64,000 nt of DNA from a virus, in IMG/VR virus record IMGVR_UViG_3300050821_014614; one strand, written 5' to 3'. Position 1 is the first letter of the stretch; each line of letters begins with the position of its first letter. Position numbers and translations under genes: made by a program. This document shows positions 2,822-64,000 of this stretch, one piece after another. The notes under the pieces are model-generated. The model did no database searches and was not told where the DNA came from. It saw only the letters and a list, made by a program, of their open reading frames with translations.

Positions 2822-3733
2822 CTAGGTGCTCTGGACGTCGACGGCGAAGTTCTGCCGCAACGGCGCGCAGCCGTAGAGAACGTCGACCGTGAACTGCTGA
2901 GCGAGCGTGTTCGGCTGATAGCTCATCGTGACGCGCATGCCGAAATTGCCCATCTCGGCATACTCGGCGATCGCGCCGGTGCCGGGAAGCGGCATCGGGA
3001 GACGGCGAACCACCAGGCCGATGGCATCACGGACGAAGGCCAGATTGTGATAGAGCGTCGAGACTTTCGTGATGTACTGCGAACGGAAGATGTCGAAGCT
3101 CGTTCCGCGTAGCACCATACCCTCAGCGATCGGGCTGGGCTGGCCATTGATGACATAGCCGGCCGTCTGCAGCTCGGTGTACCGCGGGATCTGGCGCAAC
3201 GCCGTATAGGGGTTGTCGCCCACGATCAGGATTTTGCGCTGGCCGCCGGGAATCTTGGCGTTGAAGAGCGCCTGCTCCGCGGCGTTCAGCACGGCTTCCG
3301 TGATGGCCGCTGAGCCGCCCACTGCTGCGTTGGCGGTGTAGAGCGAATACATTGCGAGCAGATCCGTTTCGATCTTCTCGGCAATCGCGATCACGGCCGG
3401 CTGCATATAGACTTTGAGCAGATCGGGCGTCGCCAGAATGCGCGTTACGTCCGGAATCTGGAACGTTGCTTCCATGTGCGTGTTCAGCACGATTTGCGCG
3501 TTGCCGAGTGCCGGGTTCTGTGTGGTGACGGTGCCGGCTTCAGCGATGTTGTTCGCTGTGAGCTTGGGCGAGATCGGCACATTGACCGTGTCGCCTGCGC
3601 TGGCGAGCGTGGGCTCGAAATCGCGGTTCACCAGGTTGCCCATGAGGAGATTACCGACGAGCGCCGGGAGGGCGTCGGCGGCGACGAGTTTGACGATGGC
3701 TTGCGCCACATTTGCTGACGTAATTGCTGGCAT
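2822..3733 (-). CDS. major capsid protein, P22-coat-like family
   Basis: 303 aa after the scaffold-like ORF; N-terminal pattern LVGNLLMGNLVNRDFEP..AGDTVNVPISP recalls P22-coat-type capsid proteins (from memory, not searched). Confidence 0.75.
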   Translation of the reverse strand: MPAITSANVAQAIVKLVAADALPALVGNLLMGNLVNRDFEPTLASAGDTVNVPISPKLTANNIAEAGTVTTQNPALGNAQIVLNTHMEATFQIPDVTRILATPDLLKVYMQPAVIAIAEKIETDLLAMYSLYTANAAVGGSAAITEAVLNAAEQALFNAKIPGGQRKILIVGDNPYTALRQIPRYTELQTAGYVINGQPSPIAEGMVLRGTSFDIFRSQYITKVSTLYHNLAFVRDAIGLVVRRLPMPLPGTGAIAEYAEMGNFGMRVTMSYQPNTLAQQFTVDVLYGCAPLRQNFAVDVQST

Positions 3734-4581: not shown

Positions 4582-6123
4582 TTAGCTCGAGTAGCCCGCG
4601 AGCGATTGCGAGAACAGCGCCTGCTGCGTTACCGCCGCGGCGGCCGCCAGATCGGAAATCGTCGGCGCGGCATCGATCTCGGCATCGATGGCGGCGTAAA
4701 CTGCCGGGTTCGCGTCCTGCAGCCCGATGCGCACGAGCTTTTTCTGTATTTCCTTTGCGAAGGTGTCGGACTGAACGTTCTCGGCCTGAATAGCGCTGAG
4801 GAATTCCACGTCCTCGGCTCCGCCCTTGTCGGCGAAATCGAACCCGCGAATGTCAGCCGCTATCTCTGCATAGCCGCGGATCGTCAGCACGTCATCGAGC
4901 ACGCCCTGCATATCGGTGCGGAGGTTGTCTCCAAAGCCTTCCTGCGCGTCCTTCGAAGGCGATTTATCCTGTTCCTTCGAAATGCCGGATTGCGCCGCGG
5001 GCGTTGCCCGCCCGCTTCGCGCCTGATCGATCAGATAGCAGGATCGATAGACGTCCTCGCGCAGTTCGTGTAAACGCTCACGATGCGTCTGCATGGCCTT
5101 GCCTTCCGGCTCAAGCCATTCGGCGCGCGTTTCCTTATCGGGAAAGTGCAGCCACGAGACCTCGCTCATCGTCGGCGTGTCGTCGTAGGGTCCGAAAATC
5201 GCCAGCATGGCGAGGGCGGACTGGAAGATCTGCCAGTCGAGCGCGTTCTCCATATTCAGGTGCTTCAGCAGCGGCAGCATGACGCGATCGCCGAACCACA
5301 TGCCCTCCGGCGCATCGCAGCGCCGCAATGGCACGCGCTGGTGATCGCTCAGCGCGTGGCGCCGCGGATAGCCCGCGACGAGGGCCGCGTTCTCTTCTTT
5401 TGCTGCCGCGCCCGGGCCAGCCTCAAATAAAACTTCGTATGCTGCTACCTGATCGGGCGTGTAGATATACCAGCAAACACGCACCTGGGTTTCGCCCAGA
5501 AGGGCAGCCTCGAACGTTTGCACCTTCAATACCACCCAGATCACATTGCCGTAATCATCCGTTTTCCAGTTGAGAACGCAGGTCGGGTCATAAGTCAGAA
5601 TGACCGGATCGAGAGCGCCCGCAGCTTCCTGTTGTGCCAGCGATCCATACTGCGCGCCGGCGGAATCGGGAAGATCGATCAGCAGCCACGACCTGCCGAA
5701 AACGATCTGGTGCGCCAATACCTGCCGCCACTTATCGGCATAGGCGCCACCGTGGTGATCGCAGTCGAGCTCCCACTGGGCGATCCACGCAGCCGTGTCG
5801 GCGGGCACGGCATCCTGCGCCGCTTTGATGTCCGCGATTGCGCTGACCCGGGTCAGGATATCCGGCTCACGCGCGAACATCGACGAAACGTACCAGCCGG
5901 CGATATTGCCAAGCAGGTTCGAATAGTTGAAGTTCTCCTGGCGCGACGCGAAGACGTCGGCATGCTCTTTTACCCGACGCATGAGAACCTCGCCACAGTT
6001 CTCCTTCAAGACCGAACCGCCACCATAGAGCAGGCCCAGCTTTCGCCAGGCACCCTTGTAGAGGCTATATTCGGGGTGCTCGGCATCGAGCGCCTTAATC
6101 GGAACTGCAGCTGGAAAGTCCAT
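4582..6123 (-). CDS. portal protein
   Basis: 513 aa ORF between large terminase and scaffold genes; call based on position and size. Confidence 0.7.
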   Translation of the reverse strand: MDFPAAVPIKALDAEHPEYSLYKGAWRKLGLLYGGGSVLKENCGEVLMRRVKEHADVFASRQENFNYSNLLGNIAGWYVSSMFAREPDILTRVSAIADIKAAQDAVPADTAAWIAQWELDCDHHGGAYADKWRQVLAHQIVFGRSWLLIDLPDSAGAQYGSLAQQEAAGALDPVILTYDPTCVLNWKTDDYGNVIWVVLKVQTFEAALLGETQVRVCWYIYTPDQVAAYEVLFEAGPGAAAKEENAALVAGYPRRHALSDHQRVPLRRCDAPEGMWFGDRVMLPLLKHLNMENALDWQIFQSALAMLAIFGPYDDTPTMSEVSWLHFPDKETRAEWLEPEGKAMQTHRERLHELREDVYRSCYLIDQARSGRATPAAQSGISKEQDKSPSKDAQEGFGDNLRTDMQGVLDDVLTIRGYAEIAADIRGFDFADKGGAEDVEFLSAIQAENVQSDTFAKEIQKKLVRIGLQDANPAVYAAIDAEIDAAPTISDLAAAAAVTQQALFSQSLAGYSS

Positions 6124-6621: not shown

Positions 6622-7971
6622 TTAAAGAAGTACTTCCGATTGCGGGCCGCCGCGCTGCCGGACCGGAAACTCGCGATGAATCAAATAGCCCAGCGCGTCA
6701 GAAACATGGGTACGGCGCGGATCGCGCTTGTCCATTGAGGCCGTCAGGTTGCCCGAAGCATCCGGCTTCCACGACACCTGTTCAAAATCGCGGACCAATT
6801 CCCTGCACTTCGGATCCACAAAAAGCCGTGCCTCGCCGAGCGAGTTGCACAGCATCGAATTGACGGCCGTAACGCGGTCTTTAACCGGCGGATCCGCCGA
6901 TGGGACCTTGAAATTAAAAACGAACCGACGGTCGTTGCGGAAGTACTCGCGAACTAATTCCCAGTCCGATGCGCCCGCGTGCGTGCGGGCATTGCCGGCG
7001 GCGTCGCCGTACACGTTCACGCGGATCTGGCCGCGTTGTTCCGCCCAGGGACCGGCCCGTCTCGCAAATTCCGCGCAGACCTCGCGAATGTTCGAATCCG
7101 GAAGGCAGATTTCGCCCAGCACCCGAACCGTGGCGCCGCGCCTGCCCATCAGCGCTTCCGCTCGTGTTCCCGATTCCTCGATCTGCACGATCAGGCTGCA
7201 CATCGGGTCGACGTTGAAATCGAGTGTCCAGCAAAGCTGGTTCGAATACAGGAAGCCCTGCGGCGCGATATTCAGCGCGCGATTGAACGCATAGTAGATG
7301 GCGCCCGTCGCCATGTTCTCGAAGCTGCCCTGATATTCCTGGCGGAAAGTCTTCTCGTCCAGATCCGCCGCGGAGGACTGGATTTCCTCGCGCGAGACAT
7401 TTCCACCGTCTTCCGTTGTGAACTGAAACGCCGCCCAATCGAGCTTCAGCCGGGCTTCCTGCCAGAGGTCGTAAAAGAACCCCATGCCCTTCGGCGTGCC
7501 GATAAACAGGGCCTTCCCCATCCGGTCCGAAAGCATTGGCCGGATAACCTCGGTCCACGCCTGGGGATGCATGTCCGCTACTTCGTCCATCACGACGAAA
7601 TCGAGGCCTTCGCCGCGGAGGTTGTCGTAGTTGTCCGCGCCGCGCAGTGCGATGACCGCGCCGCATTTCAGCTCGATCGATAAATCGGTTTCATTCGGAC
7701 GCCTGCGCCAATACGGCCGGGTGAGAGCCTTGAGCTGCTTCCACGCCACCCGTTTCGCCTGCTTATAGGTAGGCGCTACATACCAACAAACGCGTTCGGA
7801 AATCGGTGTCTGGCTGAAATCCGGATCTATGGCGGCCCGCAGAAGTGCCACGCACGCCAGAAACGTCTTGCCGAATCGCCTGCCTGCGACCAACACGATG
7901 AAACGCTTCAGGCAGCTGAAAACATCGCCTTGCGGCGGCCGGAGTCTGACTTCGACAGGGCCGCGTCTCAC
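6622..7971 (-). CDS. terL: terminase large subunit
   Basis: 449 aa; Walker A-like VAGRRFGKT and Walker B-like LDFVVMDEV; upstream of portal. Confidence 0.85.
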   Translation of the reverse strand: MRRGPVEVRLRPPQGDVFSCLKRFIVLVAGRRFGKTFLACVALLRAAIDPDFSQTPISERVCWYVAPTYKQAKRVAWKQLKALTRPYWRRRPNETDLSIELKCGAVIALRGADNYDNLRGEGLDFVVMDEVADMHPQAWTEVIRPMLSDRMGKALFIGTPKGMGFFYDLWQEARLKLDWAAFQFTTEDGGNVSREEIQSSAADLDEKTFRQEYQGSFENMATGAIYYAFNRALNIAPQGFLYSNQLCWTLDFNVDPMCSLIVQIEESGTRAEALMGRRGATVRVLGEICLPDSNIREVCAEFARRAGPWAEQRGQIRVNVYGDAAGNARTHAGASDWELVREYFRNDRRFVFNFKVPSADPPVKDRVTAVNSMLCNSLGEARLFVDPKCRELVRDFEQVSWKPDASGNLTASMDKRDPRRTHVSDALGYLIHREFPVRQRGGPQSEVLL

Positions 7972-7992: not shown

Positions 7993-8562
7993 TCAACGCT
8001 GCTGGATGGTGACGATGAATGGAGGCGGGTCTGCATTGTCGTCAGATTTATTGAGATCGCGCGTGCCGTAACGGTCAGGGAAGCGGCCCCGCTGGCGGAA
8101 CATCAGCAGAGCGTCCGATTTCTTCCAGACGCCGAGGATCTCGCCTCGCGCAAACTTGAGAATCGTCCTCCCCGTGATCGGATCAGTGGTGGTGAGCTGC
8201 AAGCCAGTCTCGGGATCCAGACACGGAATCTGTTCATACGAAAACTGACCCTGAAACACGAGTGGCTCGAAGACACCTTTGTATGCGCGGACCGAAACCT
8301 CGTCTTCGTAAGCGTCATCGCCTTCCGCCATCGCTTTGGCGAACCGGTCCGGATAACGGGGATCGGCGTCCATCCACTTGTAGTGCGACGTCCTGCCGAC
8401 TTTAGCCTCTTCGGCCGCCTGCTTGATACTGCCGGTGATGGCGATCGCGGCGAGAAAAGCGCGCTGCTTATTGCGCAGCGGGGATTTGAGCTTTCGTTTG
8501 CGCTTCGGCGCGGCCGCTGCGGGCGGCGTTTTCGCAGCTCGCTTTGTCGTTTTCGGTTTCAC
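7993..8562 (-). CDS. terS: terminase small subunit (HTH)
   Basis: HTH-like GSIKQAAEEAKVGRTSHYKWM directly upstream of TerL; start set to GTG 8562 (GTGA overlap with upstream stop); track ORF runs to 8664. Confidence 0.6.
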   Translation of the reverse strand: MKPKTTKRAAKTPPAAAAPKRKRKLKSPLRNKQRAFLAAIAITGSIKQAAEEAKVGRTSHYKWMDADPRYPDRFAKAMAEGDDAYEDEVSVRAYKGVFEPLVFQGQFSYEQIPCLDPETGLQLTTTDPITGRTILKFARGEILGVWKKSDALLMFRQRGRFPDRYGTRDLNKSDDNADPPPFIVTIQQR

Positions 8563-8825
8563 TGTGAAACAACTGACTTTTCGCGCAGATCGAACAGCGC
8601 CTTCGCTGCTTCGCGCGATGCCTTCCACTCCCGGTAATCGATTGAGCCCAGCGCCGGCCGGCATTCAGCCACGTCCCGCGCGGCTGCCGGGCAACCCGTA
8701 TACGCCAAAAGAAACGCCTGCCAGTGCCGGGTGAACGTTAGAGCGTGTTCCATTAGCGCCGCATCTGGCTCGGCTGCTATCGATACCGCGAACAGCAGCA
8801 CGCCGAGGAGCGCATATCGCTTCAC
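8559..8825 (-). CDS. exported small protein
   Basis: 88 aa; MKRYALLGVLLFAVSIAAE signal-like N-terminus; no lipobox Cys; next to lysis genes. Confidence 0.55.
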   Translation of the reverse strand: MKRYALLGVLLFAVSIAAEPDAALMEHALTFTRHWQAFLLAYTGCPAAARDVAECRPALGSIDYREWKASREAAKALFDLREKSVVSQ

Positions 8826-9010
8826 CCGATCTCCGGCATAGCTTGCACAATCAACTGCAGCCGCTGCTTCAGGAGCGCTTTAAGCGCCGCATTTTCGCGC
8901 GCCTGCTTCATCGCCTCGGCGTGCCACGCTTCCGCGGTGGCCTTCCAGGCCGCGGCGTCTTCGAGAAGTGCGGCCTTCTCTTCGAGGGATAGCTTCCACA
9001 TTTCAGCCAT
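8822..9010 (-). CDS. small coiled-coil protein
   Basis: Track ORF 8822-9112 trimmed to ATG 9010 (MAEMWKLSLEEKAALLED...); 8-nt overlap with the endolysin end. Confidence 0.45.
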   Translation of the reverse strand: MAEMWKLSLEEKAALLEDAAAWKATAEAWHAEAMKQARENAALKALLKQRLQLIVQAMPEIG

Positions 9011-9443
9011 CAAGACTCGGATCCCACGCGCACTGCTGGCCGTTCGGTCCGTAACACCAGCGCGCCTTCGCGGCTCTCGTGTCGACGTGGATATACCCGC
9101 CGTGCACAGCAACGCCGATCCCGCCCGCGGCGAACGCCGGTACCTGCAGCGCCTCCCTGTACATCCCGGCCGGCGTCATGCCCTGAATTTTGATATCGGC
9201 GGCCATCCCGAGCTCGTGCTCGGAGTCCGGAACACCGCCAACCTTTGCGTTATGCCCGCAGTGCCCTGGGGTCGGGGGTTGCCCAGGAAGCGGCAGCGGA
9301 CACCGGCACGCGCAGTCGACGGCGATCGAGACGCCAACAATTACACGCAGCGCCTCCAGCGAGTCCACAAGAACCTGATGGCAGCGGCAAAAGCCGCATC
9401 CGCGACAAGCCAGTTCGGCCTCGCTGAAGTGGGCAGAGTGCAT
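9003..9443 (-). CDS. endolysin, peptidase M15 (zinc D-Ala-D-Ala carboxypeptidase-like) family
   Basis: 146 aa; motifs HN..VGG...SEHELGMAADI and GGIGVAVHGGYIHVDTR typical of M15-type phage lysins. Confidence 0.8.
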   Translation of the reverse strand: MHSAHFSEAELACRGCGFCRCHQVLVDSLEALRVIVGVSIAVDCACRCPLPLPGQPPTPGHCGHNAKVGGVPDSEHELGMAADIKIQGMTPAGMYREALQVPAFAAGGIGVAVHGGYIHVDTRAAKARWCYGPNGQQCAWDPSLDG

Positions 9444-11294: not shown

Positions 11295-11467
11295 TCTTTT
11301 CGGTCGCCAACAGACTCGCGGAGCGCAAGCGCTACATGGCCCACATCCCGCCAGGTCGCCCTGATCTCGGGCGGAAGGTTTTTCCACGACGGGTAAACGT
11401 TTTGATCGCCCAGCCGCGATCTCAGCCACGTACGGAAGAGCTGCTCCGCGAACGCATCGCTGGTCAC
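11291..11467 (-). CDS. small protein, paralog of ORF 12438-12692
   Basis: 58 aa from GTG 11467 (GTGA overlap with sigma stop); shares an F.E.L...SR...P.W..P..RA.WR...AL.L pattern with the 84-aa ORF. Confidence 0.5.
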   Translation of the reverse strand: MTSDAFAEQLFRTWLRSRLGDQNVYPSWKNLPPEIRATWRDVGHVALALRESVGDRKE

Positions 11468-11994
11468 GCGGCAGCCCGCATAACCCTGAGCGCTCTGGCC
11501 TCGATCTGGCTTGCGCGGCATTCACTTACGCCAAAGGAGAGTCCGACTGCCTTCAACGTTTCTCCGCGCATGCGCCGGCGAACCAGTTCGCAATCGCGAT
11601 CCTTGAGGCCGCCCATGAGAGTCTCGACATCGAGCGCGGCTTCCATCGCGGGCCATGGATCCACGGCGGGGCCTTTGTTCACGCGAAGCTCGAGGTCTCC
11701 ATTTTTACGTCTGTACCCGGCATCGATAGATACCATCGCCCCATAGGCGAATCCCACACGGCGGTTACCGGTTTCCTGCCTGAGGGCATCCAGCGCCGCG
11801 AATCTCATTCGGCTGTGGACCCGGGCCTCTTCCGAACCCAGACCGTTCCAACTTCGAAAAGCGGGTATAGAGGCCATCAGAGCCTCCTGTTTCAGATCGT
11901 CGACAGGAATTCTGAAGCCCGTGATGCGGGAGATCCGCCAGGCAATACTTTGTGCGCGGCCCGCGTACTTCGCGACAATCTCGTCATCCGTCAT
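11464..11994 (-). CDS. sigma-70 family sigma factor (small, ECF/group-4-like)
   Basis: 176 aa; region-2-like DDLKQEALMASIPAFRSW and region-4.2-like LSFGVSECRASQIEARALRVMR. Confidence 0.75.
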   Translation of the reverse strand: MTDDEIVAKYAGRAQSIAWRISRITGFRIPVDDLKQEALMASIPAFRSWNGLGSEEARVHSRMRFAALDALRQETGNRRVGFAYGAMVSIDAGYRRKNGDLELRVNKGPAVDPWPAMEAALDVETLMGGLKDRDCELVRRRMRGETLKAVGLSFGVSECRASQIEARALRVMRAAA

Positions 11995-12760: not shown

Positions 12761-12930
12761 TTGTGCAGCCCGTCGCGGCCCGTGGCGCCTGTCGCACCCA
12801 CGGCACCGGTGGCTCCTGTCGTTTTCGCCGCCTTCGCTTCGAGCTTCCGGACCCGGTGTTCGAGGACCGCACCGCAGAGCAGAAGCGCCATCACCGCGAC
12901 GCACAGCACCACCGTCATCGGGTCTGTCAT
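12757..12930 (-). CDS. 57-aa membrane micro-protein with short collagen-like tail (below track threshold)
   Basis: MTDPMTVVLCVAVMALLLCGAVLEHRVRKLEAKAAKTTGATGAVGATGATGRDGLHK; ATGA overlaps at both ends. Confidence 0.45.
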   Translation of the reverse strand: MTDPMTVVLCVAVMALLLCGAVLEHRVRKLEAKAAKTTGATGAVGATGATGRDGLHK

Positions 12931-13541
12931 TTCTTCGCCTTTGGCGCGTCCGCTTTCTTCACGTCCGCCGCTTCGATCTCAACCGGAGTATCGCGGCCGA
13001 ACATGGGCAACATTAAAGTGAGGAGCGTGCCGCCTTTGATTCGGGCGATCACGGCGGAGCGCCCCGCGAACGATCCGGATTTCACCGTGACCGAAGCACC
13101 TACCACATAAGGGCAGCATGCGTCGGGAACGGTTGACTCGATCACTTGTCGCAGGTCCGCGATTTCGCAATCAGGAATCGAAACGGGAATCTGGTCGATA
13201 CTCAAAATCGTTACAACGCCGCGCGCCCGGCTGATCGATGGCGCATCGGCCGGATCGAACCGCGCAAAGATATAGCCCGGGAACAAGGGCCGCGTCGTGA
13301 CCTTCTCACGATCGCTCCACTTCACGCGTTCATCCCAGGTCGGGAGAAATTCCTCGACGCCTTCGCCGCGGAGCTGGTCACGAACCGAAAATTCGAAACG
13401 CGATCTGGTCTGGATAGCGAACCAGGAAGGTGAAGCCGCTACGCGGGCGTCCGGGGAGAACGCAGACCTCTGCAGCGCGGGCGAAACGACGGGAATCTGA
13501 TGCACTACGTGCCCTTGAGTCCCGGATTCCACCTGGTGCAT
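12927..13541 (-). CDS. NusG/RfaH-family transcription antiterminator paralog (NGN + KOW)
   Basis: WFAIQTRSRFEFSVRDQLRGEGVEEFLPTW...PLFPGYIFARF (NGN-like) and GASVTVKSGSFAGRSAVIARIKG (KOW-like); start set to ATG 13541, the track TTG 13598 lies inside the promoter-like motif. Confidence 0.8.
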   Translation of the reverse strand: MHQVESGTQGHVVHQIPVVSPALQRSAFSPDARVAASPSWFAIQTRSRFEFSVRDQLRGEGVEEFLPTWDERVKWSDREKVTTRPLFPGYIFARFDPADAPSISRARGVVTILSIDQIPVSIPDCEIADLRQVIESTVPDACCPYVVGASVTVKSGSFAGRSAVIARIKGGTLLTLMLPMFGRDTPVEIEAADVKKADAPKAKK

Positions 13542-13570
13542 TTGAAGTTGCGTAACGGCCTCACGAGCCC

Positions 13571-13610
13571 TATCGGCGCGCGCCGGAAAAACGTGCAAAC
13601 GCGAATTTAG
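13571..13610 (-). promoter_or_regulatory. conserved motif copy A (TTGCAC-17 nt-CGATAG), promoter-like
   Basis: Minus-strand reading CTAAATTCGCGTTTGCACGTTTTTCCGGCGCGCGCCGATA; similar to copies at 14007-14050 and 50401-50444. Confidence 0.55.
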
Positions 13611-14002
13611 TTCTTCGCCTGCACTGCGTCGCCGAGGGCTTTTGTCACCCGCAAAAGCTTGTCGTTGATGTGATTGCCGATATCGATTGCAGTCGCGCTG
13701 GCATCGGTCGATTCCTGCACCTTGCTGACGATGTGGGCCTCGCTTGCGTCGCGCTGTATGACGGCGGCGGCGAATGCGAGGCGGACCTGTTCCGCCTGGA
13801 AGTCGCGCGATTCTTTTTCGCGCGCATAGCGGTTGGCTTCAGCGGCGCGGTCGGCGCGGCGATTGATGGCAGTCGTGATGATCGAGCAGAAACCGGCGAC
13901 GATGGTGCCATAGAGCGCGAGATGCGCGCCGTCGGGCTGCGCGAGGATCACCGCAACGCTGCCGAGGCTCGCTGCCTGCAAGGCTGAGGGTAGATGTTCC
14001 AA
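13607..14002 (-). CDS. membrane protein (two N-terminal helices, coiled-coil tail)
   Basis: 131 aa ORF with TTG start abutting motif copy B; the true start may be further in. Confidence 0.55.
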   Translation of the reverse strand: MEHLPSALQAASLGSVAVILAQPDGAHLALYGTIVAGFCSIITTAINRRADRAAEANRYAREKESRDFQAEQVRLAFAAAVIQRDASEAHIVSKVQESTDASATAIDIGNHINDKLLRVTKALGDAVQAKN

Positions 14003-14006
14003 GTCA

Positions 14007-14050
14007 GCTAATCGGCGCGCGCGGGGGAAACGTGCAAACGGGCGGTTTAG
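14007..14050 (-). promoter_or_regulatory. conserved motif copy B (TTGCAC-17 nt-CGATTA), promoter-like
   Basis: CTAAACCGCCCGTTTGCACGTTTCCCCCGCGCGCGCCGATTAGC on the minus strand, in the divergent gap between late and early blocks. Confidence 0.55.
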
Positions 14051-14158
14051 GGGGTGGGTTTATTTTCGCGGAATGACTTGACAACAAACCAGCAAAATGC
14101 TATTCTTAGGGAGTACCTGATTAGACCAGCCTGGCAACCCCGGGCGGAGAACAAAACA

Positions 14159-23616: not shown

Positions 23617-24672
23617 TCACGCCGCTTTCTTCGCCGGCGCCGCCGGCGTTCCGCGTTCGTAGCTCGTCACGGTGCGCGATCCGGTTTGCGCCACCGATGT
23701 AACGCTGGCCGCCACGTCCGCCGAAACGTGCTCGGCAAGATCCTTCAGTGTCGTCTGCGCAAATGTGCCGAACAGTTTGACTCCCACTTTTTTAATTAAG
23801 GCCGGGATATCGAAGCTGCTGACATTACTGCGCGGTCCGATCAGCACGGTGAAGCGATCGCCCGACGCTTCGAAGCCTCTGGTTGCATCGGCATCGTCGT
23901 AGAGCTCGCGCGCCCATTTGCGAAGATTCGTCTGCCGGGTGAGTTTCGATTTCAGTGGCGCGAAAAACTGGTCTAATTCGCCCAGCTCGTCGAGGTTCTT
24001 TCTGCGATCCGCCTCGAGCGCTGCAGCCGCGGATGTGGGGATAACTTTACTGGATTTGGGCACACCGCTATATCGGCGCGGCGCCTGCGAACCGTGCACG
24101 CCGGTGCGGAACCGCAACTCCGCGATCGCTTCGCTGTGCCGCTCTGCGACCCATCGCAGGGAATGGCCCATCGCCTTGGCGATCGCCGGCATCGTCATTT
24201 CGGCCGAACCGTAGCGCATCGATAGAATGCGCCGCTGATCGGCCGATAACCAGGTTGTGGCCGCAATCGTTTTCAGGAGTTGCTCACGGGTGTGCGCGTC
24301 CCGTTCCTGGTTGGCCACTGTCGGCGCACAGGCTACGCCAGGCGCGTCGTCTTCGTTTTCGCCGGTACTGAGCGGAAGACACGTGCCGGCGGTGTAGTGG
24401 CGCCCGGTGACAGCGTCCAGCATGGCGCCGCGGATCCGCTTACGGGCGAAACACACGAACGGCACGGGTTTCGGGAAGCCAGAGCGCTGGTGCGCGGCCG
24501 GGTTATATTGCGTGGCGGCGCGGAGCAGACCGATCACGCCTTCCTGTACGAGATCCTCGACCGGAAACGAAGGCGGCAGGGTTCGGCTCAGACCGCGGGC
24601 GATATGCCGGATCAGGGGCAGGTGCGCGTCCACAAGTTCGGTGTGGCACAATGTATTGTTTTTCACTGCCAT
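23617..24672 (-). CDS. sigma-70 family sigma factor (group-3/FliA-like) fused to a roughly 170-aa C-terminal domain of unknown function
   Basis: Region 2 EDLVQEGVIGLLRAATQYNP..FARKRIRGAMLDAV, region 4 LSADQRRILSMRY..TMPAIAKAMGHSLRWVAERHSEAIAELR; trimmed to ATG 24672. Confidence 0.7.
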   Translation of the reverse strand: MAVKNNTLCHTELVDAHLPLIRHIARGLSRTLPPSFPVEDLVQEGVIGLLRAATQYNPAAHQRSGFPKPVPFVCFARKRIRGAMLDAVTGRHYTAGTCLPLSTGENEDDAPGVACAPTVANQERDAHTREQLLKTIAATTWLSADQRRILSMRYGSAEMTMPAIAKAMGHSLRWVAERHSEAIAELRFRTGVHGSQAPRRYSGVPKSSKVIPTSAAAALEADRRKNLDELGELDQFFAPLKSKLTRQTNLRKWARELYDDADATRGFEASGDRFTVLIGPRSNVSSFDIPALIKKVGVKLFGTFAQTTLKDLAEHVSADVAASVTSVAQTGSRTVTSYERGTPAAPAKKAA

Positions 24673-24676
24673 ACTG

Positions 24677-25024
24677 ATGAACGAGATGATCGTACCGCGA
24701 AAAAAGGCCGTGCCCGCACACTGTAACCCCCGAGTGACAGGCCGCAACGGAGTGTCGCAGACGGTGGCGCGGACCATCCTCGTGTGGCTGGAGCGTATCG
24801 GGAAGAATCAGACCTGGCTTGCCGAAGAGTCAGGCTTGTCGCGCAAACGCGTAAACGAGATCGCCGCCGGACGGCAGAGTGAGATCCACGCCAGCACCCT
24901 TTTCCGGCTGGCGCTGGCACTTAAGCTCACGCCGAACGTGTTGTACGGGTACGCGCATCCGGATTATGTTGTGCACCCGAAGTTCACGCCAGGAGCGGCC
25001 CGGGTTTTTCACGGGCTGGTGTAG
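24677..25024 (+). CDS. XRE/Cro-CI family HTH regulator
   Basis: QTWLAEESGLSRKRVNEIAAGRQSEIHASTLFRLALAL. Start uncertain: ATG 24677 is only 5 nt from the divergent sigma start, and GTG 24752 is possible. Confidence 0.65.
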   Translation: MNEMIVPRKKAVPAHCNPRVTGRNGVSQTVARTILVWLERIGKNQTWLAEESGLSRKRVNEIAAGRQSEIHASTLFRLALALKLTPNVLYGYAHPDYVVHPKFTPGAARVFHGLV

Positions 25025-31000: not shown

Positions 31001-31087
31001 ACCACCAAAGTACTGCTTTTCCTGGGGTTGCGTTCAAAAATATTTATGGTTTCGCCTTCCATTCACCGCGCACCGAAAAACACCACG

Positions 31088-36224: not shown

Positions 36225-36263
36225 AGAATGCCATAAGAATGCCAATGTTTTGCCTGTTTTTGC
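36225..36263. repeat. short tandem repeats in an AT-rich stretch upstream of the integrase (arm-site/attP candidate)
   Basis: AGAATGCCA twice (36225, 36236) and TGTTTT(T)GC twice (36246, 36255). Confidence 0.4.
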
Positions 36264-36339
36264 ATGATTTCCTGCCTTCGGCCGATATACTCGTTTGGAT
36301 GCGAATTCAACCTTACTCCTGGATAAAGAGGACACCCAA

Positions 36340-46463: not shown

Positions 46464-48128
46464 TCAGTAAGTGACCCAGTTCGAGCCATTGCACATGACT
46501 GGCACGAAAGTTCCACCGCCGCTCACGTATGTACCCATGAACGTCGGACTGGCGGCATCGTACACCGTTTCCTTGTCATTCGCGAGTTGCCCGTTGCAGA
46601 CTGGAAGCGGAAAACCAGACGCGCCATAGAGCGAAATAGACTGCGAATTATGCAGAGTCACGTTCAGGGCGCCAGATCGGGTAATGAACTGCATTCCGTT
46701 GGAACCGGAGCCCGCGCTGTTTGAGGGGCCGTAGAGCATGTAGTCGATAGTTCCCGCCAGCTTGTTACCGGCGTCCACGATCAGGGAAGAGCTCGGCGCC
46801 ATCCAACTGGTGCCCCAGCTTTCTCCATCCATATGGAATTTAACCGGCACAACCGAGGAAGCCCCGGAGTCAACCGCGATCATAATTGGTGAACTCTCGA
46901 CCCGCGCGGATCCCTCGACGTCGTGATTGTAGGCGTAGAGATAGATGCCGGCATTACAGCCGTACAGGTATGGAGAGGTCATCAGGCCGTGTTCCCCGGG
47001 CACCAGGCAATGGTTCATGAACGCGACTTTGCCGCCAACCTCTAACTGCACGTTGTTGTATGCCTGCGGCATCCAGATACCGGTACTGCCGCCTGTCGGC
47101 GCGTTCCAGGTACAGCAGGGGCTTGCTACGTCCGGCGCAGAAGCAACAACAGTATGATTGCCAACGTGCGCCTGCAATGCGTTCGCGAGCATCAGGCCGT
47201 TTAGTTTCGTCTGGGCCGGAAGGCTCCAGTTCAGGTTATCGGTAACCAGATCCAGGCCTTCAAATATGCTCCCGAAGTTGCCGGAAGTCGCAGCAACATA
47301 GGGCGCTGCGGAGAAGGCTGAGTTACCTGACACATTCGGTGCGTCGCTAAAATCCAACGTCACGTTCGGCGCTTCACCGAGCAGCGTCACCGGGACCGGG
47401 AAACCATACCCGACGCTTTGCGGCACTGTCAGGATGCCGCCGGTCGCGGGGTCCGCCACACAATTCATGCGATAGTAGCCATCCGTTCCGGTCTGCCGGA
47501 ACCACACGATGCCACCGGCCCCTGTGTTGTAAGACGCTGCTATAGCAGCATTCGCCGAAGCGCAGTCGCTGTGCTTCACAGTTACCCCGGTGACGGCAAT
47601 CGTGCAGTTCACGGCCAGGGTGAAGATATTACCGGAAATCGCCGTGACCTTAGTCGCCAGGTTTCCATGGGGGTTTTGGGTTACGGTAGAAACGCAGCCG
47701 GGAATCCAGATACCGTGACCAACAGAAAATGTCGCCGCGCTGACTACGGTCAGAGAGTTTGTGTTGGCCGCTATCGTCCCTGTCGTCGTCGCCGCTGAGC
47801 CGCTTGCACTGTAGTTTGCGACAACGTCGTATTTGTAGAGCGACGAGGCGCCTGCGCCGCGCAATTGCCACTGCCCTGCCGCGACAGACGTGCAGGCCGG
47901 AGCCGGGGTGCCCGCTGCCGCGCCGCATATGTACTCCGCGACCGGGCTGGTGGCTGTGTTGAGGTAGCTGTCCTGCGAAAGATTGCCGGCTACAGATCCG
48001 GGAGCCCCGGCGCCGTTGAACGCGCGCGGAGTGACGGCAGAGATGGCAGGCGTATTCCGCTGCCCGATATCGCGGACCTGGCCAAAACAGGAAAGAGCGA
48101 TGAAGACGAGCGTGAGGGCGAGCTTCAT
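46464..48128 (-). CDS. exported beta-helix (pectate-lyase/tailspike-like) protein
   Basis: 554 aa; MKLALTLVFIALSCFGQ signal peptide; Gly/Asn/Thr/Ser-rich with ...GAGGIVWFRQTGTDGYY... segment. Confidence 0.6.
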   Translation of the reverse strand: MKLALTLVFIALSCFGQVRDIGQRNTPAISAVTPRAFNGAGAPGSVAGNLSQDSYLNTATSPVAEYICGAAAGTPAPACTSVAAGQWQLRGAGASSLYKYDVVANYSASGSAATTTGTIAANTNSLTVVSAATFSVGHGIWIPGCVSTVTQNPHGNLATKVTAISGNIFTLAVNCTIAVTGVTVKHSDCASANAAIAASYNTGAGGIVWFRQTGTDGYYRMNCVADPATGGILTVPQSVGYGFPVPVTLLGEAPNVTLDFSDAPNVSGNSAFSAAPYVAATSGNFGSIFEGLDLVTDNLNWSLPAQTKLNGLMLANALQAHVGNHTVVASAPDVASPCCTWNAPTGGSTGIWMPQAYNNVQLEVGGKVAFMNHCLVPGEHGLMTSPYLYGCNAGIYLYAYNHDVEGSARVESSPIMIAVDSGASSVVPVKFHMDGESWGTSWMAPSSSLIVDAGNKLAGTIDYMLYGPSNSAGSGSNGMQFITRSGALNVTLHNSQSISLYGASGFPLPVCNGQLANDKETVYDAASPTFMGTYVSGGGTFVPVMCNGSNWVTY

Positions 48129-49024
48129 TGTGTGATCGACCCTCCGTTTATCGTGCAGTTAGTGGTGCCACCCCCGGCTTCGACGAATTCGTAAAAGTAG
48201 CCGTTCGGTATAATTCCAACGATTTCCTGGTTAAAGCCGCCCACAATCTGAAACCAATTCGTGTTGACCGATACGGTTGGCGGTGACGCAGCCCCCGCTA
48301 AAACTGCCATCACCTGGCTGCTGCTGCAAAAACCGCCGCCCGCTACCGTCTGCGGCGCTCCCGACGTGTTCTGATAAATGGTTCTAATGGCGAATGAGAA
48401 ACTGGAGATAGCCGCAAAAGGCGCCGCACCGCATGTCGCCGTCACAATCTGCGAACTGGAATTCGTTCCCACGCAGGTTTGTGAAGCTGGCACGGCGGCG
48501 CTATTCACACTGTTAATCAACGTTCCGAACTGCGCAGGCGAAAGTTCCACTATCGCTGTCGCGCCGGCAGACGCCGATGTCAGAAGCGTGCCGATGATCC
48601 GCGTCGAGGTACTGATCGAGGCGGACGCCGTAGGGCCGGAAAACCCGGAGTCGCGGCAATCGATGACTGTGGACGTCCCGGGAATCACGAGATGGCCAGC
48701 CGTTGCGTTGTTGTCCATGACACACGCGACCTGCCCGTAACGCTGGACCTGCACGGACGCCGTAGCGATGGCCGTCGAGAGCGCTACACCGTGCGCGCCT
48801 GCGCCGGTTGCTGCGATGGCTTTCGCGGGCGAAGACGTGTCCGTTATTACGAGCGTATTCGCTGTCACGCCGCCTGAGCCGGCGATGAACGTTTCTGTCG
48901 CACACGCCTTTGCGTTGATCTCAGCTGCTGCTACCGTGCTGCCGCTGGCAGATGCCGAACACTGTCCGAAAAGTGAAGCTCCGGAAGCGGCGAGAATCAC
49001 CGCGAGAAATATGGTGTTTTTCAT
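48125..49024 (-). CDS. exported Ala/Ser/Thr-rich fibre-like protein
   Basis: 299 aa; MKNTIFLAVILAASGASLFGQ signal peptide; 4-nt overlap with the next gene. Confidence 0.6.
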   Translation of the reverse strand: MKNTIFLAVILAASGASLFGQCSASASGSTVAAAEINAKACATETFIAGSGGVTANTLVITDTSSPAKAIAATGAGAHGVALSTAIATASVQVQRYGQVACVMDNNATAGHLVIPGTSTVIDCRDSGFSGPTASASISTSTRIIGTLLTSASAGATAIVELSPAQFGTLINSVNSAAVPASQTCVGTNSSSQIVTATCGAAPFAAISSFSFAIRTIYQNTSGAPQTVAGGGFCSSSQVMAVLAGAASPPTVSVNTNWFQIVGGFNQEIVGIIPNGYFYEFVEAGGGTTNCTINGGSITQ

Positions 49025-49025
49025 G

Positions 49026-50156: not shown

Positions 50157-50174
50157 TTGGGGAATTCCGGGGAA

Positions 50175-50393
50175 TTACTTAGCTGATGGAGGAAGCCCAG
50201 CCGCATCGACGCAAATCAATTCCAGCGTCGGAACTCCGTCAATAAAGACGATCCCCACAATGCAGGGATATGGCTGCGCAGGCATCACCGGCGCGGGTGG
50301 CCTTGGCTCCGGGCGCCGCGGCATTGCTCCGGCCGTCGCCCCGATACAAGACATGCAGGCGGCCGCTAGCGATAGCCCGATGAACTTTTTCAT
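50175..50393 (-). CDS. small exported protein, possible lipoprotein
   Basis: 72 aa; MKKFIGLSLAAACMSC; the ATG lies only about 10 nt after motif copy C. Confidence 0.55.
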   Translation of the reverse strand: MKKFIGLSLAAACMSCIGATAGAMPRRPEPRPPAPVMPAQPYPCIVGIVFIDGVPTLELICVDAAGLPPSAK

Positions 50394-50400
50394 GTACCCG

Positions 50401-50444
50401 GCTAATCGGCGCGCAGGCGGGAAACGTGCAAAGGGCCCGGTTAG
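50401..50444 (-). promoter_or_regulatory. conserved motif copy C (TTGCAC-17 nt-CGATTA), promoter-like
   Basis: CTAACCGGGCCCTTTGCACGTTTCCCGCCTGCGCGCCGATTAGC on the minus strand, between the spike gene and the exported-protein operon. Confidence 0.55.
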
Positions 50445-51769: not shown

Positions 51770-51770
51770 G

Positions 51771-55718: not shown

Positions 55719-55732
55719 GCGATGGTTGAGCT

Positions 55733-55984
55733 ATGGAAGGACTTGTAACGAGCGCCATTGCGCTGGGGCTGAGCAAGGAGTCCTACACCCAGGGGCAAAA
55801 GGATCTCATCGATTCGATGAGGGAAACGCTGGAGCTACTCAGGCCCACATACGGCCCCGCGCTAACACAAGCGATAGTGCAAATGCTGGACATTCAGGCG
55901 CGGGTGGTAGCCGGAACTCCCCTGGACGCCGCGATGCTCACCGCTCACCTCGCGCATGTGATCGTCACCGGTCCGCCGCAATGA
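55733..55984 (+). CDS. opposite-strand moron, hypothetical protein
   Basis: 83 aa plus-strand ORF between hub and distal-tail genes. Confidence 0.45.
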   Translation: MEGLVTSAIALGLSKESYTQGQKDLIDSMRETLELLRPTYGPALTQAIVQMLDIQARVVAGTPLDAAMLTAHLAHVIVTGPPQ

Positions 55985-57050: not shown

Positions 57051-57053
57051 CGG

Positions 57054-61108: not shown

Positions 61109-61164
61109 TGGTCCTTTTTGAATGCGAATATCAGGTAGTGACCGAAGCCGAGGTAATAGACCTG

Positions 61165-62374: not shown

Positions 62375-62474
62375 GTTTTGGTTTTTCCTTTAGGCCCGGC
62401 GGGCGCCGGGGTGAGATAGGTTGCGCGGGAACCGCCTCGCGTGGTTTGTTGAAGATCTGTGAGAGAGTTGAGCT

Positions 62475-63941: not shown

Positions 63942-64000
63942 GTGCGGAGCGTTGCGGCCGCGCAGATCGACGGTGCCTGCGCTGCGTCCGAATTTCTCCT

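What the first reader, a model, noticed from the sequence alone, without database searches (positions are those of the whole stretch)
13571..14050. A 40-44 bp motif occurs three times, always just upstream of minus-strand genes
Minus-strand readings are: A (13610-13571) CTAAATTCGCGTTTGCACGTTTTTCCGGCGCGCGCCGATA; B (14050-14007) CTAAACCGCCCGTTTGCACGTTTCCCCCGCGCGCGCCGATTAGC; C (50444-50401) CTAACCGGGCCCTTTGCACGTTTCCCGCCTGCGCGCCGATTAGC. All three share TTTGCACGTTT, then exactly 17 nt from TTGCAC to CGAT(T/A). That is promoter geometry with a non-consensus -10. The motif could be a promoter class read by one of the two phage sigma factors, a loading site for the NusG paralog, or both. Copy A precedes the NusG/late operon, copy B a membrane protein, and copy C the exported fibre-like operon 36 kb away. 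In B and C the annotated start codon lies within about 10 nt of the -10-like element, which implies leaderless or near-leaderless mRNAs.
Basis: seen in the sequence. Interest (0 to 1): 0.75.

Follow-up and report, generated by a model that had tools for sequence, protein, structure and literature searches.

The report
Phage flagellar-sigma-type late promoter set
The repeated 30-base motif is most likely a set of promoters built like bacterial flagellar (sigma-28) promoters, read by a sigma factor that this uncultured phage encodes itself to switch on its late genes.

Summary
Three near-identical copies lie on the minus strand at 13570-13599, 14009-14038 and 50403-50432, far above chance. It is incomplete: the window holds five copies. 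A fourth is on the plus strand (36259-36288), before a recombinase gene. A fifth lies inside the 386-aa sigma gene (24070-24100).

In fact the motif, (TTT)GCACGTTT-n11-GCCGAT(T/A)(A/G), has the published sigma-28/FliA layout, TAAAGTTT-n11-GCCGATAA. Only the TAAA half of the -35 box differs; it is GCAC here. The 386-aa phage sigma has a FliA-like region 2.

Twenty-four copies in at least ten related contigs keep both boxes and the spacing while the flanks diverge. The copy inside the sigma gene survives a shift of reading frame between the boxes, so selection acts on the DNA. In 15 of the 24 copies, and before the C-terminal-domain genes of four distant relatives, the start codon sits within -1 to +4 of the predicted start site with no ribosome-binding site. 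That suggests leaderless mRNAs.

The motif does not fold, matches no Rfam family, and is not a repeat in any sequenced genome. A role as a NusG-paralog loading site is not supported.

Everything is inferred from sequence. No transcription data exist and the host is unknown. This is a new variant of a known kind and moderately interesting.

The parts
13570..13599 (-). Copy A: TTT-GCACGTTT (-35 box, 13589-13596), an 11-nt spacer, then GCCGATAG (-10 box, 13570-13577). The predicted start site is about 13562. A leader of roughly 57 nt runs to the GTG start of the NusG paralog at 13505.
   Evidence: Orthologous copies exist in L004, L006, L066, L067 and L070.
14009..14038 (-). Copy B: TTT-GCACGTTT, n11, GCCGATTA. 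The predicted start site is about 14001, inside the TTG (14002-14000) that opens the 131-aa membrane/coiled-coil ORF.
   Evidence: TTGGAAC is invariant 8 nt after CGAT in six phages, even where the protein diverges.
50403..50432 (-). Copy C: TTT-GCACGTTT, n11, GCCGATTA. The predicted start site is about 50395, 2 nt before the ATG at 50393 of a 72-aa signal-peptide ORF. The collagen-like tail-fibre gene (50156..49026) follows.
36259..36288 (+). Copy D: TTT-GCATGATT, n11, GCCGATAT, upstream of the second tyrosine-recombinase gene (ATG at 36340, preceded by a Shine-Dalgarno-like AGAGGA).
   Evidence: A matching motif stands before the homologous recombinase in L047/L055.
24070..24100 (-). Copy E, inside the 386-aa sigma gene at the linker between sigma region 4 and the C-terminal domain: GCACGGTT, n12, GCCGATAT. 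An in-frame GTG (24063-24061, codon 239) lies 6 nt after the octamer. It would give a 148-aa C-terminal-domain product.
   Evidence: The copy is kept in all four orthologues although the reading frame across the -35 box and the amino acids differ.
23617..24777 (-). Phage sigma factor 'sigma386' (public aa, starting at 24672). It has a FliA-like region 2 and a region 4, no recognisable domain 3, and a conserved 148-aa C-terminal domain. It is the best candidate reader of the motif.
   Evidence: Pfam Sigma70_r2 and r4. NCBIfam FliA_WhiG is the top hit at 61.8 bits; the closest solved structures are FliA (9wsm, 6pmi); the family is found in four motif-bearing contigs (the window, the contig of L005/L006, L073, L074) and as a C-terminal fragment at the contig end of L066.
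11464..11994 (-). Second phage sigma, 'sigma176', inside the operon downstream of copy A. It is an accessory sigma found only in the window and L067.
12927..13505 (-). NusG paralog (NusG_SP), the first gene of the late operon driven by copy A.
   Evidence: PF02357 at 62.7 bits. UpxY subfamily at 90.5 bits, below the cut-off of 100, and RfaH at 71 bits; the public call is 192 aa.
13607..14002 (-). 131-aa ORF between B and A. It has no family match and contains a predicted hydrophobic segment.
14078..14106 (+). Sigma-70-type promoter match (TTGACA, 17 nt, TATTCT, with TG) that diverges from copy B. It shows that consensus sigma-70-type promoter matches also occur in this phage.
   Evidence: The TTGTCAA block is conserved in the B-region alignment.

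Best explanation
The motif is the core promoter of a phage-specific late or middle transcription class built on the sigma-28 (FliA, group 3) plan.

Anatomy. The -35 octamer is GCACGTTT, usually preceded by TTT. An 11-nt (sometimes 12-nt) G+C-rich spacer ends in CGC. The -10 octamer is GCCGAT(T/A)(A/G); its GC is the extended -10 and the A of CGAT is the base flipped at -11.

Mechanism (inferred). Host core RNA polymerase carrying a phage-encoded FliA-like sigma initiates about 8 nt downstream of the octamer. The most likely sigma is the 386-aa protein at 24777..23617. Its gene sits next to a divergently transcribed XRE-type repressor gene, so it is probably the first lytic gene.

Targets in this window:
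- B: a small membrane protein.
- A: the NusG paralog and the operon behind it, which carries sigma176, lysis, terminase, portal and head genes.
- C: the tail-fibre module.
- D: a recombinase.
- E: from inside the sigma gene itself, the sigma's own C-terminal domain as a separate product.

At B, C, E and the copies that follow the sigma gene in relatives, the start codon lies at -1 to +3 of the predicted start site with no Shine-Dalgarno sequence. Those transcripts are probably leaderless.

Shown: the sequence anatomy, the copy number, the conservation and the contexts. Inferred: promoter activity, the start sites, which sigma reads the motif, and leaderless translation.
For: 1. Five copies occur in 64 kb against 0.025 expected. 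They score 21.6-40.8 bits against a best null of 16.8.

2. The architecture matches the published sigma-28 consensus TAAAGTTT-n11-GCCGATAA (PMC2859248) and the P. aeruginosa fliC -10, (-15)GCCGATAA(-8), with A-11 flipped and an extended -10 GC (PMC12784957). GCCGAT is present in 23 of 24 compiled copies. The spacing is n11 in 20 and n12 in 4.

3. Region 2 of sigma386 hits FliA best: TIGR02479 at 61.8 bits and PDB FliA structures. In the alignment it keeps the equivalents of P. aeruginosa R80, R82 and D87, and an aromatic residue at Y76. PMC12784957 describes R80 as group-3 specific and as contacting -12G. The only named cellular homologue is 'sigma 28 subunit FliA/WhiG'.

4. Phylogenetic footprint. 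The motif block shows a 0.86-0.89 majority fraction against 0.55-0.61 for the upstream flanks across six phages. Motif copies sit before different genes in different phages: a terS-like gene in L041 and L024, a PKD-domain protein in L005 and L074, a 163-aa sigma in L073, and a recombinase in L047.

5. Copy E is retained in four of four sigma orthologues. The reading frame across TGCACG shifts by one base and the amino acids differ, which indicates selection on the DNA.

6. Distant relatives (sigma 32-38% identical) carry lineage-specific boxes that share a -10-like sCCGAyTA or GGCGACTA. These lie 6-12 nt before the start codon of the separate C-terminal-domain gene and upstream of the NusG paralog.

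7. The start codon lies within -1 to +4 of the predicted start site, without a Shine-Dalgarno sequence, in 15 of the 24 compiled copies (L074 detail). The same geometry holds before the separate C-terminal-domain genes of four distant relatives.

8. There is no RNA structure (z-scores -0.08 to +1.24) and no Rfam match.

9. The sigma386 family is found in motif-bearing contigs: the window, the contig of L005/L006, L073, L074, and a C-terminal fragment at the end of L066. Sigma176 is absent from 4.5-10 kb downstream of the NusG paralog in L004, L006, L066 and L070, all of which carry the motif.
Against: - There are no transcription data of any kind, and the host is unknown.
- The 5' half of the -35 octamer is GCAC, not TAAA.
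- A matrix built from 25 E. coli FliA ChIP sites does not single out copies A-C. The motif is sigma-28-like, not a canonical sigma-28 promoter.
- Sigma386 lacks a recognisable domain 3, which in FliA reads the extended -10 GC. In the window it has T where E. coli FliA has R84; orthologues have R or G.
- TTG is an unusual leaderless start codon. The same TTG occurs at -1 to +2 in non-coding contexts (A copies of L004, L006, L070 and L041; copy D). It may be a promoter or start-site feature rather than a start codon.
- The matrices used for scanning include the window's own copies, so that test is partly circular.
- The long, strongly conserved TTTGCACGTTT block could be an activator site rather than a sigma region 4 target.
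Confidence: 0.7

Rival explanations
1. The motif is a promoter class read by the smaller phage sigma (sigma176, 11994..11464), alone or together with sigma386. Because sigma176 lies downstream of copy A, this would be positive autoregulation.
For: Region 2 of sigma176 reads RMRFAALDALRQE. This keeps the equivalents of FliA D81 and R84, and FliA_WhiG is its second-best NCBIfam hit. It is encoded in the operon downstream of copy A. In L073 a different small sigma also lies directly behind a motif copy.
Against: Sigma176 homologues occur only in the window and L067. They are absent from 4.5-10 kb downstream of the NusG paralog in L004, L006, L066 and L070, which all carry conserved motif copies. 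The L073 small sigma is unrelated apart from weak similarity in region 4. A variable accessory sigma fits the role of a target of the motif better than the role of its reader.
Confidence: 0.12
2. The motif is read by the host's own flagellar sigma factor (FliA). The phage would borrow a host regulon signal.
For: The -10 octamer, the GTTT half of the -35 box and the n11 spacing match the FliA consensus.
Against: TAAA is replaced by GCAC (ACAC in one L066 copy) in all 24 compiled copies. Single changes within TAAA reduce E. coli sigma-28 promoter activity about ten-fold (aer213 and aer214). An E. coli FliA matrix ranks A-C poorly. The phage carries its own FliA-like sigma. A scan of 185,579 species genomes for TTTGCACGNTT-N9-GCGCCGAT found only 17 single hits with unrelated spacers, about what chance predicts.
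Confidence: 0.08
3. The motif is a loading or pause site for the NusG paralog, analogous to ops for RfaH. It would be read on the non-template strand of transcripts coming from upstream.
For: A and C directly follow upstream genes on the same strand, so read-through polymerase would cross them. NusG-family proteins and sigma factors share a binding site on the polymerase and both read non-template DNA (PMC7819879).
Against: The element is bipartite, with a spacer that varies in sequence and length. It has no similarity to the 12-nt ops element. Copies occur where no NusG-led operon follows: D before a recombinase on the other strand, and E inside the sigma gene. B is the first element after a divergent promoter region. 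The distance to start codons is fixed. Distant relatives conserve only the -10-like box.
Confidence: 0.04
4. The motif, or its TTTGCACGTTT half, is the operator or activator site of a phage DNA-binding protein. Candidates are the small GerE/LuxR-type protein encoded after the NusG paralog in relatives, or the sigma's C-terminal domain. It would work with a minimal -10, as at activator-dependent late promoters of P2, Mu or RinA-type phages.
For: The upstream block is unusually long (11 nt) and strongly conserved. Distant relatives share only the -10-like box, and some show no common -35 box (L075). GerE-family genes follow the NusG paralog in L067 and L070.
Against: There is no dyad symmetry. 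The GTTT half and its n11 distance to the -10 box are exactly those of the sigma-28 -35 octamer. The sigma has an intact region 4.
Confidence: 0.06

Closest known systems
Sigma-28 (FliA, group 3) flagellar class 3 promoters of bacteria: consensus TAAAGTTT-n11-GCCGATAA
   Same: The -10 octamer matches at 7 of 8 positions, including the extended -10 GC and the CGA core with A at -11. The GTTT half of the -35 octamer matches. The spacer is 11 nt. The spacer next to GTTT is C-rich, as at E. coli tar and tsr. The candidate sigma has a FliA-type region 2.
   Different: The 5' half of the -35 box is GCAC (extended to TTTGCAC) instead of TAAA. Position -9 is often T. The bases CGC just upstream of GCCGAT are conserved. 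The candidate sigma lacks domain 3 and carries an extra C-terminal domain. The targets are phage late genes, not flagellar genes. An E. coli FliA matrix does not pick the sites out.
Phage-encoded sigma factors with their own promoter classes, for example phiEco32 gp36 (an ECF-like sigma; PMC12276001), phage 7-11 (PMC4331800), and SPO1 gp28 and gp33/34 (PMC13401047)
   Same: The phage supplies a sigma that redirects host core polymerase to a highly conserved phage-specific promoter repeated before middle or late genes.
   Different: The promoter follows the sigma-28 plan. The phage is temperate, with the sigma gene next to an XRE-type repressor gene. A NusG paralog heads the late operon. There is an internal promoter within the sigma gene. 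No homologue of either protein was found in 50,697 deposited phage records at useful similarity.
UpxY- and RfaH-type NusG paralogs that act on the leader of the long operon they control (PMC7819879)
   Same: A NusG paralog (best NCBIfam hit UpxY, 90.5 bits) is the first gene of a long operon, preceded by a conserved leader of about 57 nt. This mirrors upxY in Bacteroides capsule loci.
   Different: The score is below the family cut-off of 100. No ops element or leader terminator was identified. The repeated motif examined here is the promoter, not the recruitment site for the paralog.
flgM, the anti-sigma-28 gene that is itself transcribed from a sigma-28 promoter
   Same: A small partner protein, the C-terminal domain of sigma386, appears to be expressed from a promoter of the sigma's own class. 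It is a separate gene in distant relatives. The arrangement suggests feedback.
   Different: There is no sequence similarity to FlgM. The function of the C-terminal domain is unknown. Here it is also fused to the sigma.

Membership tests
Sigma-28/FliA-class promoter | A long -10 element GCCGATAA, made of an extended -10 GC and a core CGATAA | tested here: met
   The window copies read GCCGATAG, GCCGATTA, GCCGATTA, GCCGATAT and GCCGATAT. GCCGAT is present in 23 of 24 compiled copies.
Sigma-28/FliA-class promoter | A -35 octamer TAAAGTTT | tested here: not met
   Only the 3' half (GTTT, GATT or GGTT) matches. The 5' half is GCAC (ACAC in one L066 copy) in all 24 copies. TAAA matters for E. coli sigma-28.
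Sigma-28/FliA-class promoter | An 11-nt spacer between the two octamers | tested here: met
   Twenty of 24 copies have n11 and four have n12.
Sigma-28/FliA-class promoter | High score with a matrix built from experimentally mapped FliA sites | tested here: not met
   The matrix came from 25 E. coli ChIP-seq sites. D and E rank third and fourth, A ranks seventh in a reduced model, and B and C fall outside the top 12.
Sigma-28/FliA-class promoter | Transcription depends on a sigma-28-family sigma factor | not testable with these tools
   Only the candidate could be examined. Region 2 of sigma386 is FliA-like, but domain 3 is missing.
   CGATTA, CGATAG and CGATAT have G at position 2. If the register is shifted to GATNNN, position 6 is variable (G, A, C or T) across the 24 copies. 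The consensus scan reports no site at the motif, yet it finds a good match 40 nt away on the other strand.
ECF (group 4) sigma promoter | A -35 box containing AAC followed by a T-rich stretch, and a -10 box containing CGT, about 16-17 nt apart | tested here: inconclusive
   CAC-G-TTT and CGA resemble this layout but do not match it. The ECF consensus is taken from my own knowledge, not from a tool result. Sigma386 has the two-domain ECF-like layout, but its region 2 scores best as FliA.
RfaH ops-type recruitment site for a NusG paralog | A single 12-nt element in the transcribed leader, read on the non-template strand of a paused elongation complex (PMC7819879) | tested here: not met
   The motif is bipartite and about 30 nt long. 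It lies upstream of the predicted start site and occurs at loci not followed by the NusG-led operon.
Intrinsic terminator or structured RNA element | A stable hairpin, with or without a U-tract, or a match to a known RNA family | tested here: not met
   Folding z-scores run from -0.08 to +1.24, so the motif is no more stable than shuffled sequence. No Rfam family reaches its gathering score anywhere in the window.
Phage-encoded sigma plus cognate late promoter system | The phage encodes a sigma-70-family protein, and a conserved promoter-like motif is repeated upstream of late genes in the gene orientation | tested here: met
   Two sigma genes are present. The five oriented copies stand before the NusG paralog with the lysis and head operon, the tail fibre, a membrane protein, a recombinase and the sigma's C-terminal domain.
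UpxY family (for the NusG paralog downstream of copy A) | Score at or above the NCBIfam NF033644 cut-off of 100 bits | tested here: not met
   The score is 90.5 bits. UpxY is the best hit, ahead of RfaH at 71 and NusG at 54.

The most novel reading that the evidence does not exclude
A large group of uncultured temperate phages may run a compact two-tier lytic programme. Release of an XRE-type repressor would allow expression of a FliA-derived, two-domain sigma. That sigma would fire sigma-28-like promoters, several of which give leaderless mRNAs. One promoter is embedded in the sigma's own coding sequence and would produce its C-terminal domain as a separate protein, giving FlgM-like feedback or a partner subunit. 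Another promoter launches a late operon of more than 30 kb headed by a NusG paralog that keeps it processive. If so, the conserved -10 box (sCCGAyTA) together with lineage-specific -35 boxes would be a natural set of orthogonal sigma-promoter pairs.
Probability: 0.3. Interest if true: 0.65.

Novelty: new variant of a known kind. Interest (0 to 1): 0.5.

Why it matters
Phage-encoded sigma factors with private promoter classes are a classic theme, but all well-studied cases come from a few cultured phages. This case points to a FliA-derived sigma in an uncultured soil and peat phage lineage. Its promoters keep the sigma-28 -10 box and spacing but change the -35 specificity. That would be a natural example of promoter-sigma co-divergence and a possible source of orthogonal expression parts.

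The arrangement also links three mechanisms in one circuit: an alternative sigma, leaderless translation, and a NusG paralog at the head of the late operon. An internal promoter within the sigma gene adds a testable feedback idea.

For annotation, the motif is a ready marker for late transcription units and for true start codons. Several of the start codons it marks are TTG or GTG codons with no ribosome-binding site.

Tried and rejected
- DNA similarity to deposited phages: no match.
- Protein similarity of sigma386 and the NusG paralog to deposited phages: only remote hits at 29% identity or less.
- Genome-collection scan with the motif: 17 hits, one per genome, with unrelated spacers, all judged to be chance. 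No host or prophage was identified.
- Metagenome scan: 42 hits. Only L041 and L024, and probably L047/L055, are genuine.
- My first mismatch search used the wrong spacer length and missed the copies.
- The E. coli FliA matrix did not single out A-C. I kept this as evidence against strict membership in the sigma-28 class.
- Leader of copy A: the consensus fold found only a 4-bp mini-hairpin with no covariation, so an RNA-element reading has no support.
- Ops-like reading of GGCACGTAGTGC in that leader: 6 of 12 matches by eye, not pursued.
- The terminator-like hairpin at 50269-50251, downstream of C, is within chance expectation and was rejected as an attenuator.
- The AlphaFold2 model of sigma386 from seven sequences had a mean pLDDT of 48.9, with only sigma domain 2 confident. 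It is too poor for a fold search of the C-terminal domain, so none was run.
- Host assignment through portal homologues and cluster names failed. The only hint is a 54%-identical NusG paralog in a Candidatus Eremiobacterota MAG.
- Covariation between sigma region 4 and the variant -35 box of L066 could not be tested, because the sigma gene is cut by the contig end.
Full report
**Observation**

The three quoted sequences are in the window on the minus strand exactly as written. TTTGCACGTTT occurs only at those three places. A 32-column weight matrix scores them at 48-53 bits. No other position in either strand reaches 8 bits, and the best of 20 shuffles is 11.6. The family is also the only non-coding three-copy repeat found by the repeat finder (family D3).

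It is incomplete, though. The relaxed pattern GCAYGNTT-N11/12-GCCGAT has five matches against 0.025 expected. A two-block matrix places all five (40.8, 40.8, 38.2, 30.2 and 21.6 bits) above the highest null score of 16.8. That matrix includes the window's own copies, so the test is partly circular. The extra copies are:

- D, on the plus strand at 36259-36288.
- E, on the minus strand at 24070-24100, inside a sigma-factor gene.

**Genomic context**

The window is a temperate tailed-phage genome of about 61% G+C, with no close DNA relative among deposited phages.

Going down the minus strand from 14038, the order is as follows:

| Feature | Coordinates |
|---|---|
| Copy B | 14009-14038 |
| 131-aa hydrophobic/coiled-coil ORF | 14002..13607 |
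| Copy A | 13570-13599 |
| NusG paralog (PF02357, 62.7 bits; best NCBIfam hit UpxY, 90.5 bits, below its cut-off of 100; public start GTG) | start 13505 |
| 176-aa sigma | 11994..11464 |
| Phosphatase and lipase | between the sigma and the endolysin |
| Endolysin | 9443..9003 |
| Small terminase | 8664..7993 |
| Large terminase | 7971..6622 |
| Portal | 6123..4582 |
| Major head protein | 3733..2822 |

The tail genes occupy 64000..46464 on the same strand. Copy C sits between a 442-aa gene and a collagen-like tail-fibre gene, directly before a 72-aa signal-peptide ORF that public gene callers did not call.

A second sigma of 386 aa (public aa) lies at 24777..23617. It has Sigma70_r2 and r4 domains. 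In orthologous contigs its gene diverges from an XRE/HTH_3 gene, and the window has the same layout.

A good sigma-70-type promoter match (TTGACA, 17 nt, TATTCT) faces away from copy B on the other strand. Consensus sigma-70-type promoter matches therefore also occur in this phage.

**What the motif is**

The better register is GCACGTTT-n11-GCCGAT(T/A)(A/G).

The published sigma-28 (FliA) consensus is TAAAGTTT-n11-GCCGATAA (PMC2859248). In the P. aeruginosa fliC open complex the -10 is (-15)GCCGATAA(-8). There the GC acts as an extended -10 and the first A is flipped out at -11 (PMC12784957).

The phage motif matches the -10 octamer at 7 of 8 positions in all five window copies. It matches the GTTT half of the -35 octamer, and it has exactly the n11 spacing. 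Even the C-rich start of the spacer recalls E. coli tar (TAAAGTTTCCCCCCTCCTTGCCGATAAC). The difference is the 5' half of the -35 box: GCAC, usually extended to TTTGCAC, in place of TAAA.

The motif is not a canonical FliA promoter. A matrix built from 25 high-confidence E. coli FliA ChIP sites ranks D and E third and fourth in the window, but does not single out A, B or C. Single changes in TAAA cut E. coli sigma-28 promoter activity about ten-fold.

**Who reads it**

Both phage sigmas are FliA-like in region 2.

For sigma386:
- The top NCBIfam hit is FliA_WhiG (61.8 bits).
- The closest solved structures are FliA (9wsm, 6pmi).
- The only named cellular homologue is a 'sigma 28 subunit FliA/WhiG'.

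In the alignment, sigma386 keeps the equivalents of P. aeruginosa R80, R82 and D87, and has an aromatic residue at Y76. PMC12784957 calls R80 a group-3 signature that contacts -12G. Sigma386 has no recognisable domain 3. In the window it has T at the position of E. coli R84; orthologues have R or G. In the weakly aligned region 4.2 it has R and E where P. aeruginosa FliA uses S224 and Q228 to read the -35 box. This fits a changed -35 specificity, but that part of the alignment is weak.

Sigma176 keeps RMRFAALDALR, which includes the D81 and R84 equivalents.

Distribution favours sigma386. Its family is present in the window, the 67-kb contig behind L005/L006, L073 and L074, in L066 as a C-terminal fragment, and in distant relatives. 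Sigma176 homologues are seen only in the window and L067. They are missing from 4.5-10 kb downstream of the NusG paralog in L004, L006, L066 and L070, all of which carry the motif. In L073 a different small sigma lies right behind a motif copy. The small sigmas therefore look like targets of the motif rather than its readers.

**Comparative evidence**

Relatives were gathered by motif scans and through homologues of the NusG paralog and sigma386. I compiled 24 copies from at least ten contigs.

The consensus is TTTGCACGtTTTcCcg.cgCGC-GCCGAT(a/t)(a/g)g....tTTG. Spacing is n11 in 20 copies and n12 in 4.

Orthologous A and B copies are kept in L004, L006, L067 and L070. L066 keeps them with a variant -35 box shared in part by both of its copies (CGCGCACGGTT and CGCACACGATT).

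Across six phages the motif block has a majority fraction of 0.86-0.89, against 0.55-0.61 for the upstream flanks.

The same motif precedes other genes in other phages:
- A terS-like gene in L041 and L024.
- A secreted PKD-domain protein directly after the sigma gene in L005 and L074.
- A 163-aa sigma in L073.
- The orthologous recombinase in L047/L055, matching copy D.

Copy E is the most telling case. It lies in the poorly conserved linker between sigma region 4 and the C-terminal domain, and it is present in all four orthologues. TGCACG is read in one frame in the window and L005 (GTG CAC GGT) and in another in L073 and L074 (GGT GCA CGx). The frame is restored by the n12/n11 spacer difference, and the encoded amino acids differ. 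That pattern indicates selection on the DNA, not on the protein.

In more distant relatives (sigma 32-38% identical) the C-terminal domain is a separate gene. These are L068, L071, L072 and L075; L075 comes from a Candidatus Eremiobacterota MAG. In each one, that gene and the NusG paralog are preceded by lineage-specific boxes. The boxes share a -10-like sCCGAyTA or GGCGACTA but have different upstream halves.

**Start sites and leaderless mRNAs**

Using the P. aeruginosa register, the start site falls 8 nt after the octamer. The predicted sites in the window are 13562 (A), 14001 (B), 50395 (C), 36296 (D) and 24062 (E).

The start codon begins at -1 in the six B copies, in L005 and in the E copies. 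It begins at +1 in L074 and at +3 in C. None of these has room for a Shine-Dalgarno sequence. The separate C-terminal-domain genes of L068, L071, L072 and L075 have the same geometry, with start codons at -1 to +4.

Two cautions apply. TTG is an unusual leaderless start codon. The same TTG occupies -1 to +2 in copies where it is not a start codon (A copies of L004, L006, L070 and L041; copy D). A, D and the terS-type copies have ordinary leaders of 18-57 nt, with a Shine-Dalgarno-like sequence at A and D.

**Rivals**

- Structured RNA or terminator: excluded. Folding z-scores are -0.08 to +1.24 and there is no Rfam match.
- Generic host repeat: not seen in any of 185,579 species genomes. The 17 hits are single copies with unrelated spacers.
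- NusG-paralog loading site: unlikely. RfaH-type recruitment uses a single 12-nt element in the transcribed leader. This motif is bipartite, lies upstream of its own predicted start site, and also occurs at D and E.

**Model (inferred)**

Release of the XRE-type repressor allows host sigma-70-dependent expression of sigma386. The sigma386 holoenzyme then fires promoters B, A, C, D and E. A launches the NusG paralog and the long lysis, head and, probably, tail operon. The paralog plausibly keeps that operon processive, as UpxY-type paralogs that head their own operons do. C boosts the tail-fibre module. E yields the sigma's C-terminal domain on its own, which could give feedback in the way that sigma-28-dependent flgM does. 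None of these steps has been observed. They follow from the sequence anatomy, the conservation and what is known of the families involved.

**Novelty and score**

Phage sigma factors with private promoter classes are well known. Examples are phiEco32 gp36, phage 7-11 and the SPO1 sigmas. This is therefore a new variant of a known kind.

Its distinctive features are:
- the sigma-28-type architecture with an altered -35 box;
- a two-domain FliA-like sigma fused to an extra domain that also has its own internal promoter;
- frequent leaderless geometry;
- the pairing with a NusG paralog.

No close relative of either protein exists among 50,697 deposited phage records. Interest is moderate, at 0.5.

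Noticed in passing
window 29341-29372 and 29379-29410: A tandem pair of 32-nt repeats, 94% identical: TAATTTGACATAAGATGTGGCCTCGGAAGCTG and TAATTTGACATAATATGTGGCGTCGGAAGCTG. Each contains TTGACA. They may be paired promoters or operators in an early or regulatory region.
   Followed up: no
window 13503-13530 (minus strand), and the same element in L004, L006, L066, L067 and L070: The leader between copy A and the NusG paralog contains GGGACTCAAGGGCACGTAGTG, nearly invariant in six phages and more conserved than the coding sequence. It holds a Shine-Dalgarno-like AAGGG, the GTG start, and a mini-palindrome GCACnnnGTGC whose loop varies while the stem does not. It is loosely ops-like (6 of 12) and is a candidate recruitment or autoregulation site for the NusG paralog.
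   Followed up: partly
window 23617-24063 (minus strand); L068 7418-7819, L071 7407-7817, L072 about 6922-7320, L075 1878-2282: The 148-aa C-terminal domain of sigma386 is the best-conserved part of the protein. It is a separate gene in distant relatives and has no Pfam, PHROG or PDB sequence match. Its fold could not be predicted (pLDDT below 50).
   Followed up: partly
L006 5090-5940: An insertion of about 870 nt carrying a reverse-strand ORF separates the conserved NusG leader and N-terminal extension from the NGN domain in this relative. It may be a mobile or homing-type gene.
   Followed up: no
window about 24673-25020; L073 9688-10001; L074 9656-10001: The sigma386 gene is transcribed divergently from an XRE/HTH_3 repressor-like gene. 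That places the sigma where the first lytic gene of a cI/cro-type switch would be.
   Followed up: partly
L074 11105-11150: The -35 box is duplicated in tandem (TTTGCACGATCTGG TTTGCACGGTATGAG) before a single GCCGATTA. The ATG of a 1179-aa PKD-domain protein lies exactly at the predicted +1.
   Followed up: partly
L066 3417-3446 and 3804-3833: Both motif copies in this relative have lost the upstream TTT (CGC-ACACGATT and CGC-GCACGGTT against TTT-GCACGTTT). This suggests concerted change with the cognate sigma. The sigma gene is cut by the contig end, so the idea could not be tested.
   Followed up: partly
window 31028-32008 (+) and 36340-37068 (+): There are two tyrosine-recombinase genes. 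Only the second carries a motif copy (D). It may therefore be expressed late, for example as a resolvase or invertase, rather than acting as the lysogeny integrase.
   Followed up: no
window 20372-20461 and 20633-20722: A 90-nt direct repeat, 70% identical, lies inside the 600-aa HerA/TrwB-like ATPase gene. It probably reflects an internal duplication of a protein segment.
   Followed up: no
window 10477-11328 and 9749-10501 (minus strand): The late operon carries a dual-specificity/tyrosine phosphatase domain and a class 3 lipase between the sigma176 gene and the endolysin. This is unusual cargo for a lysis region.
   Followed up: no
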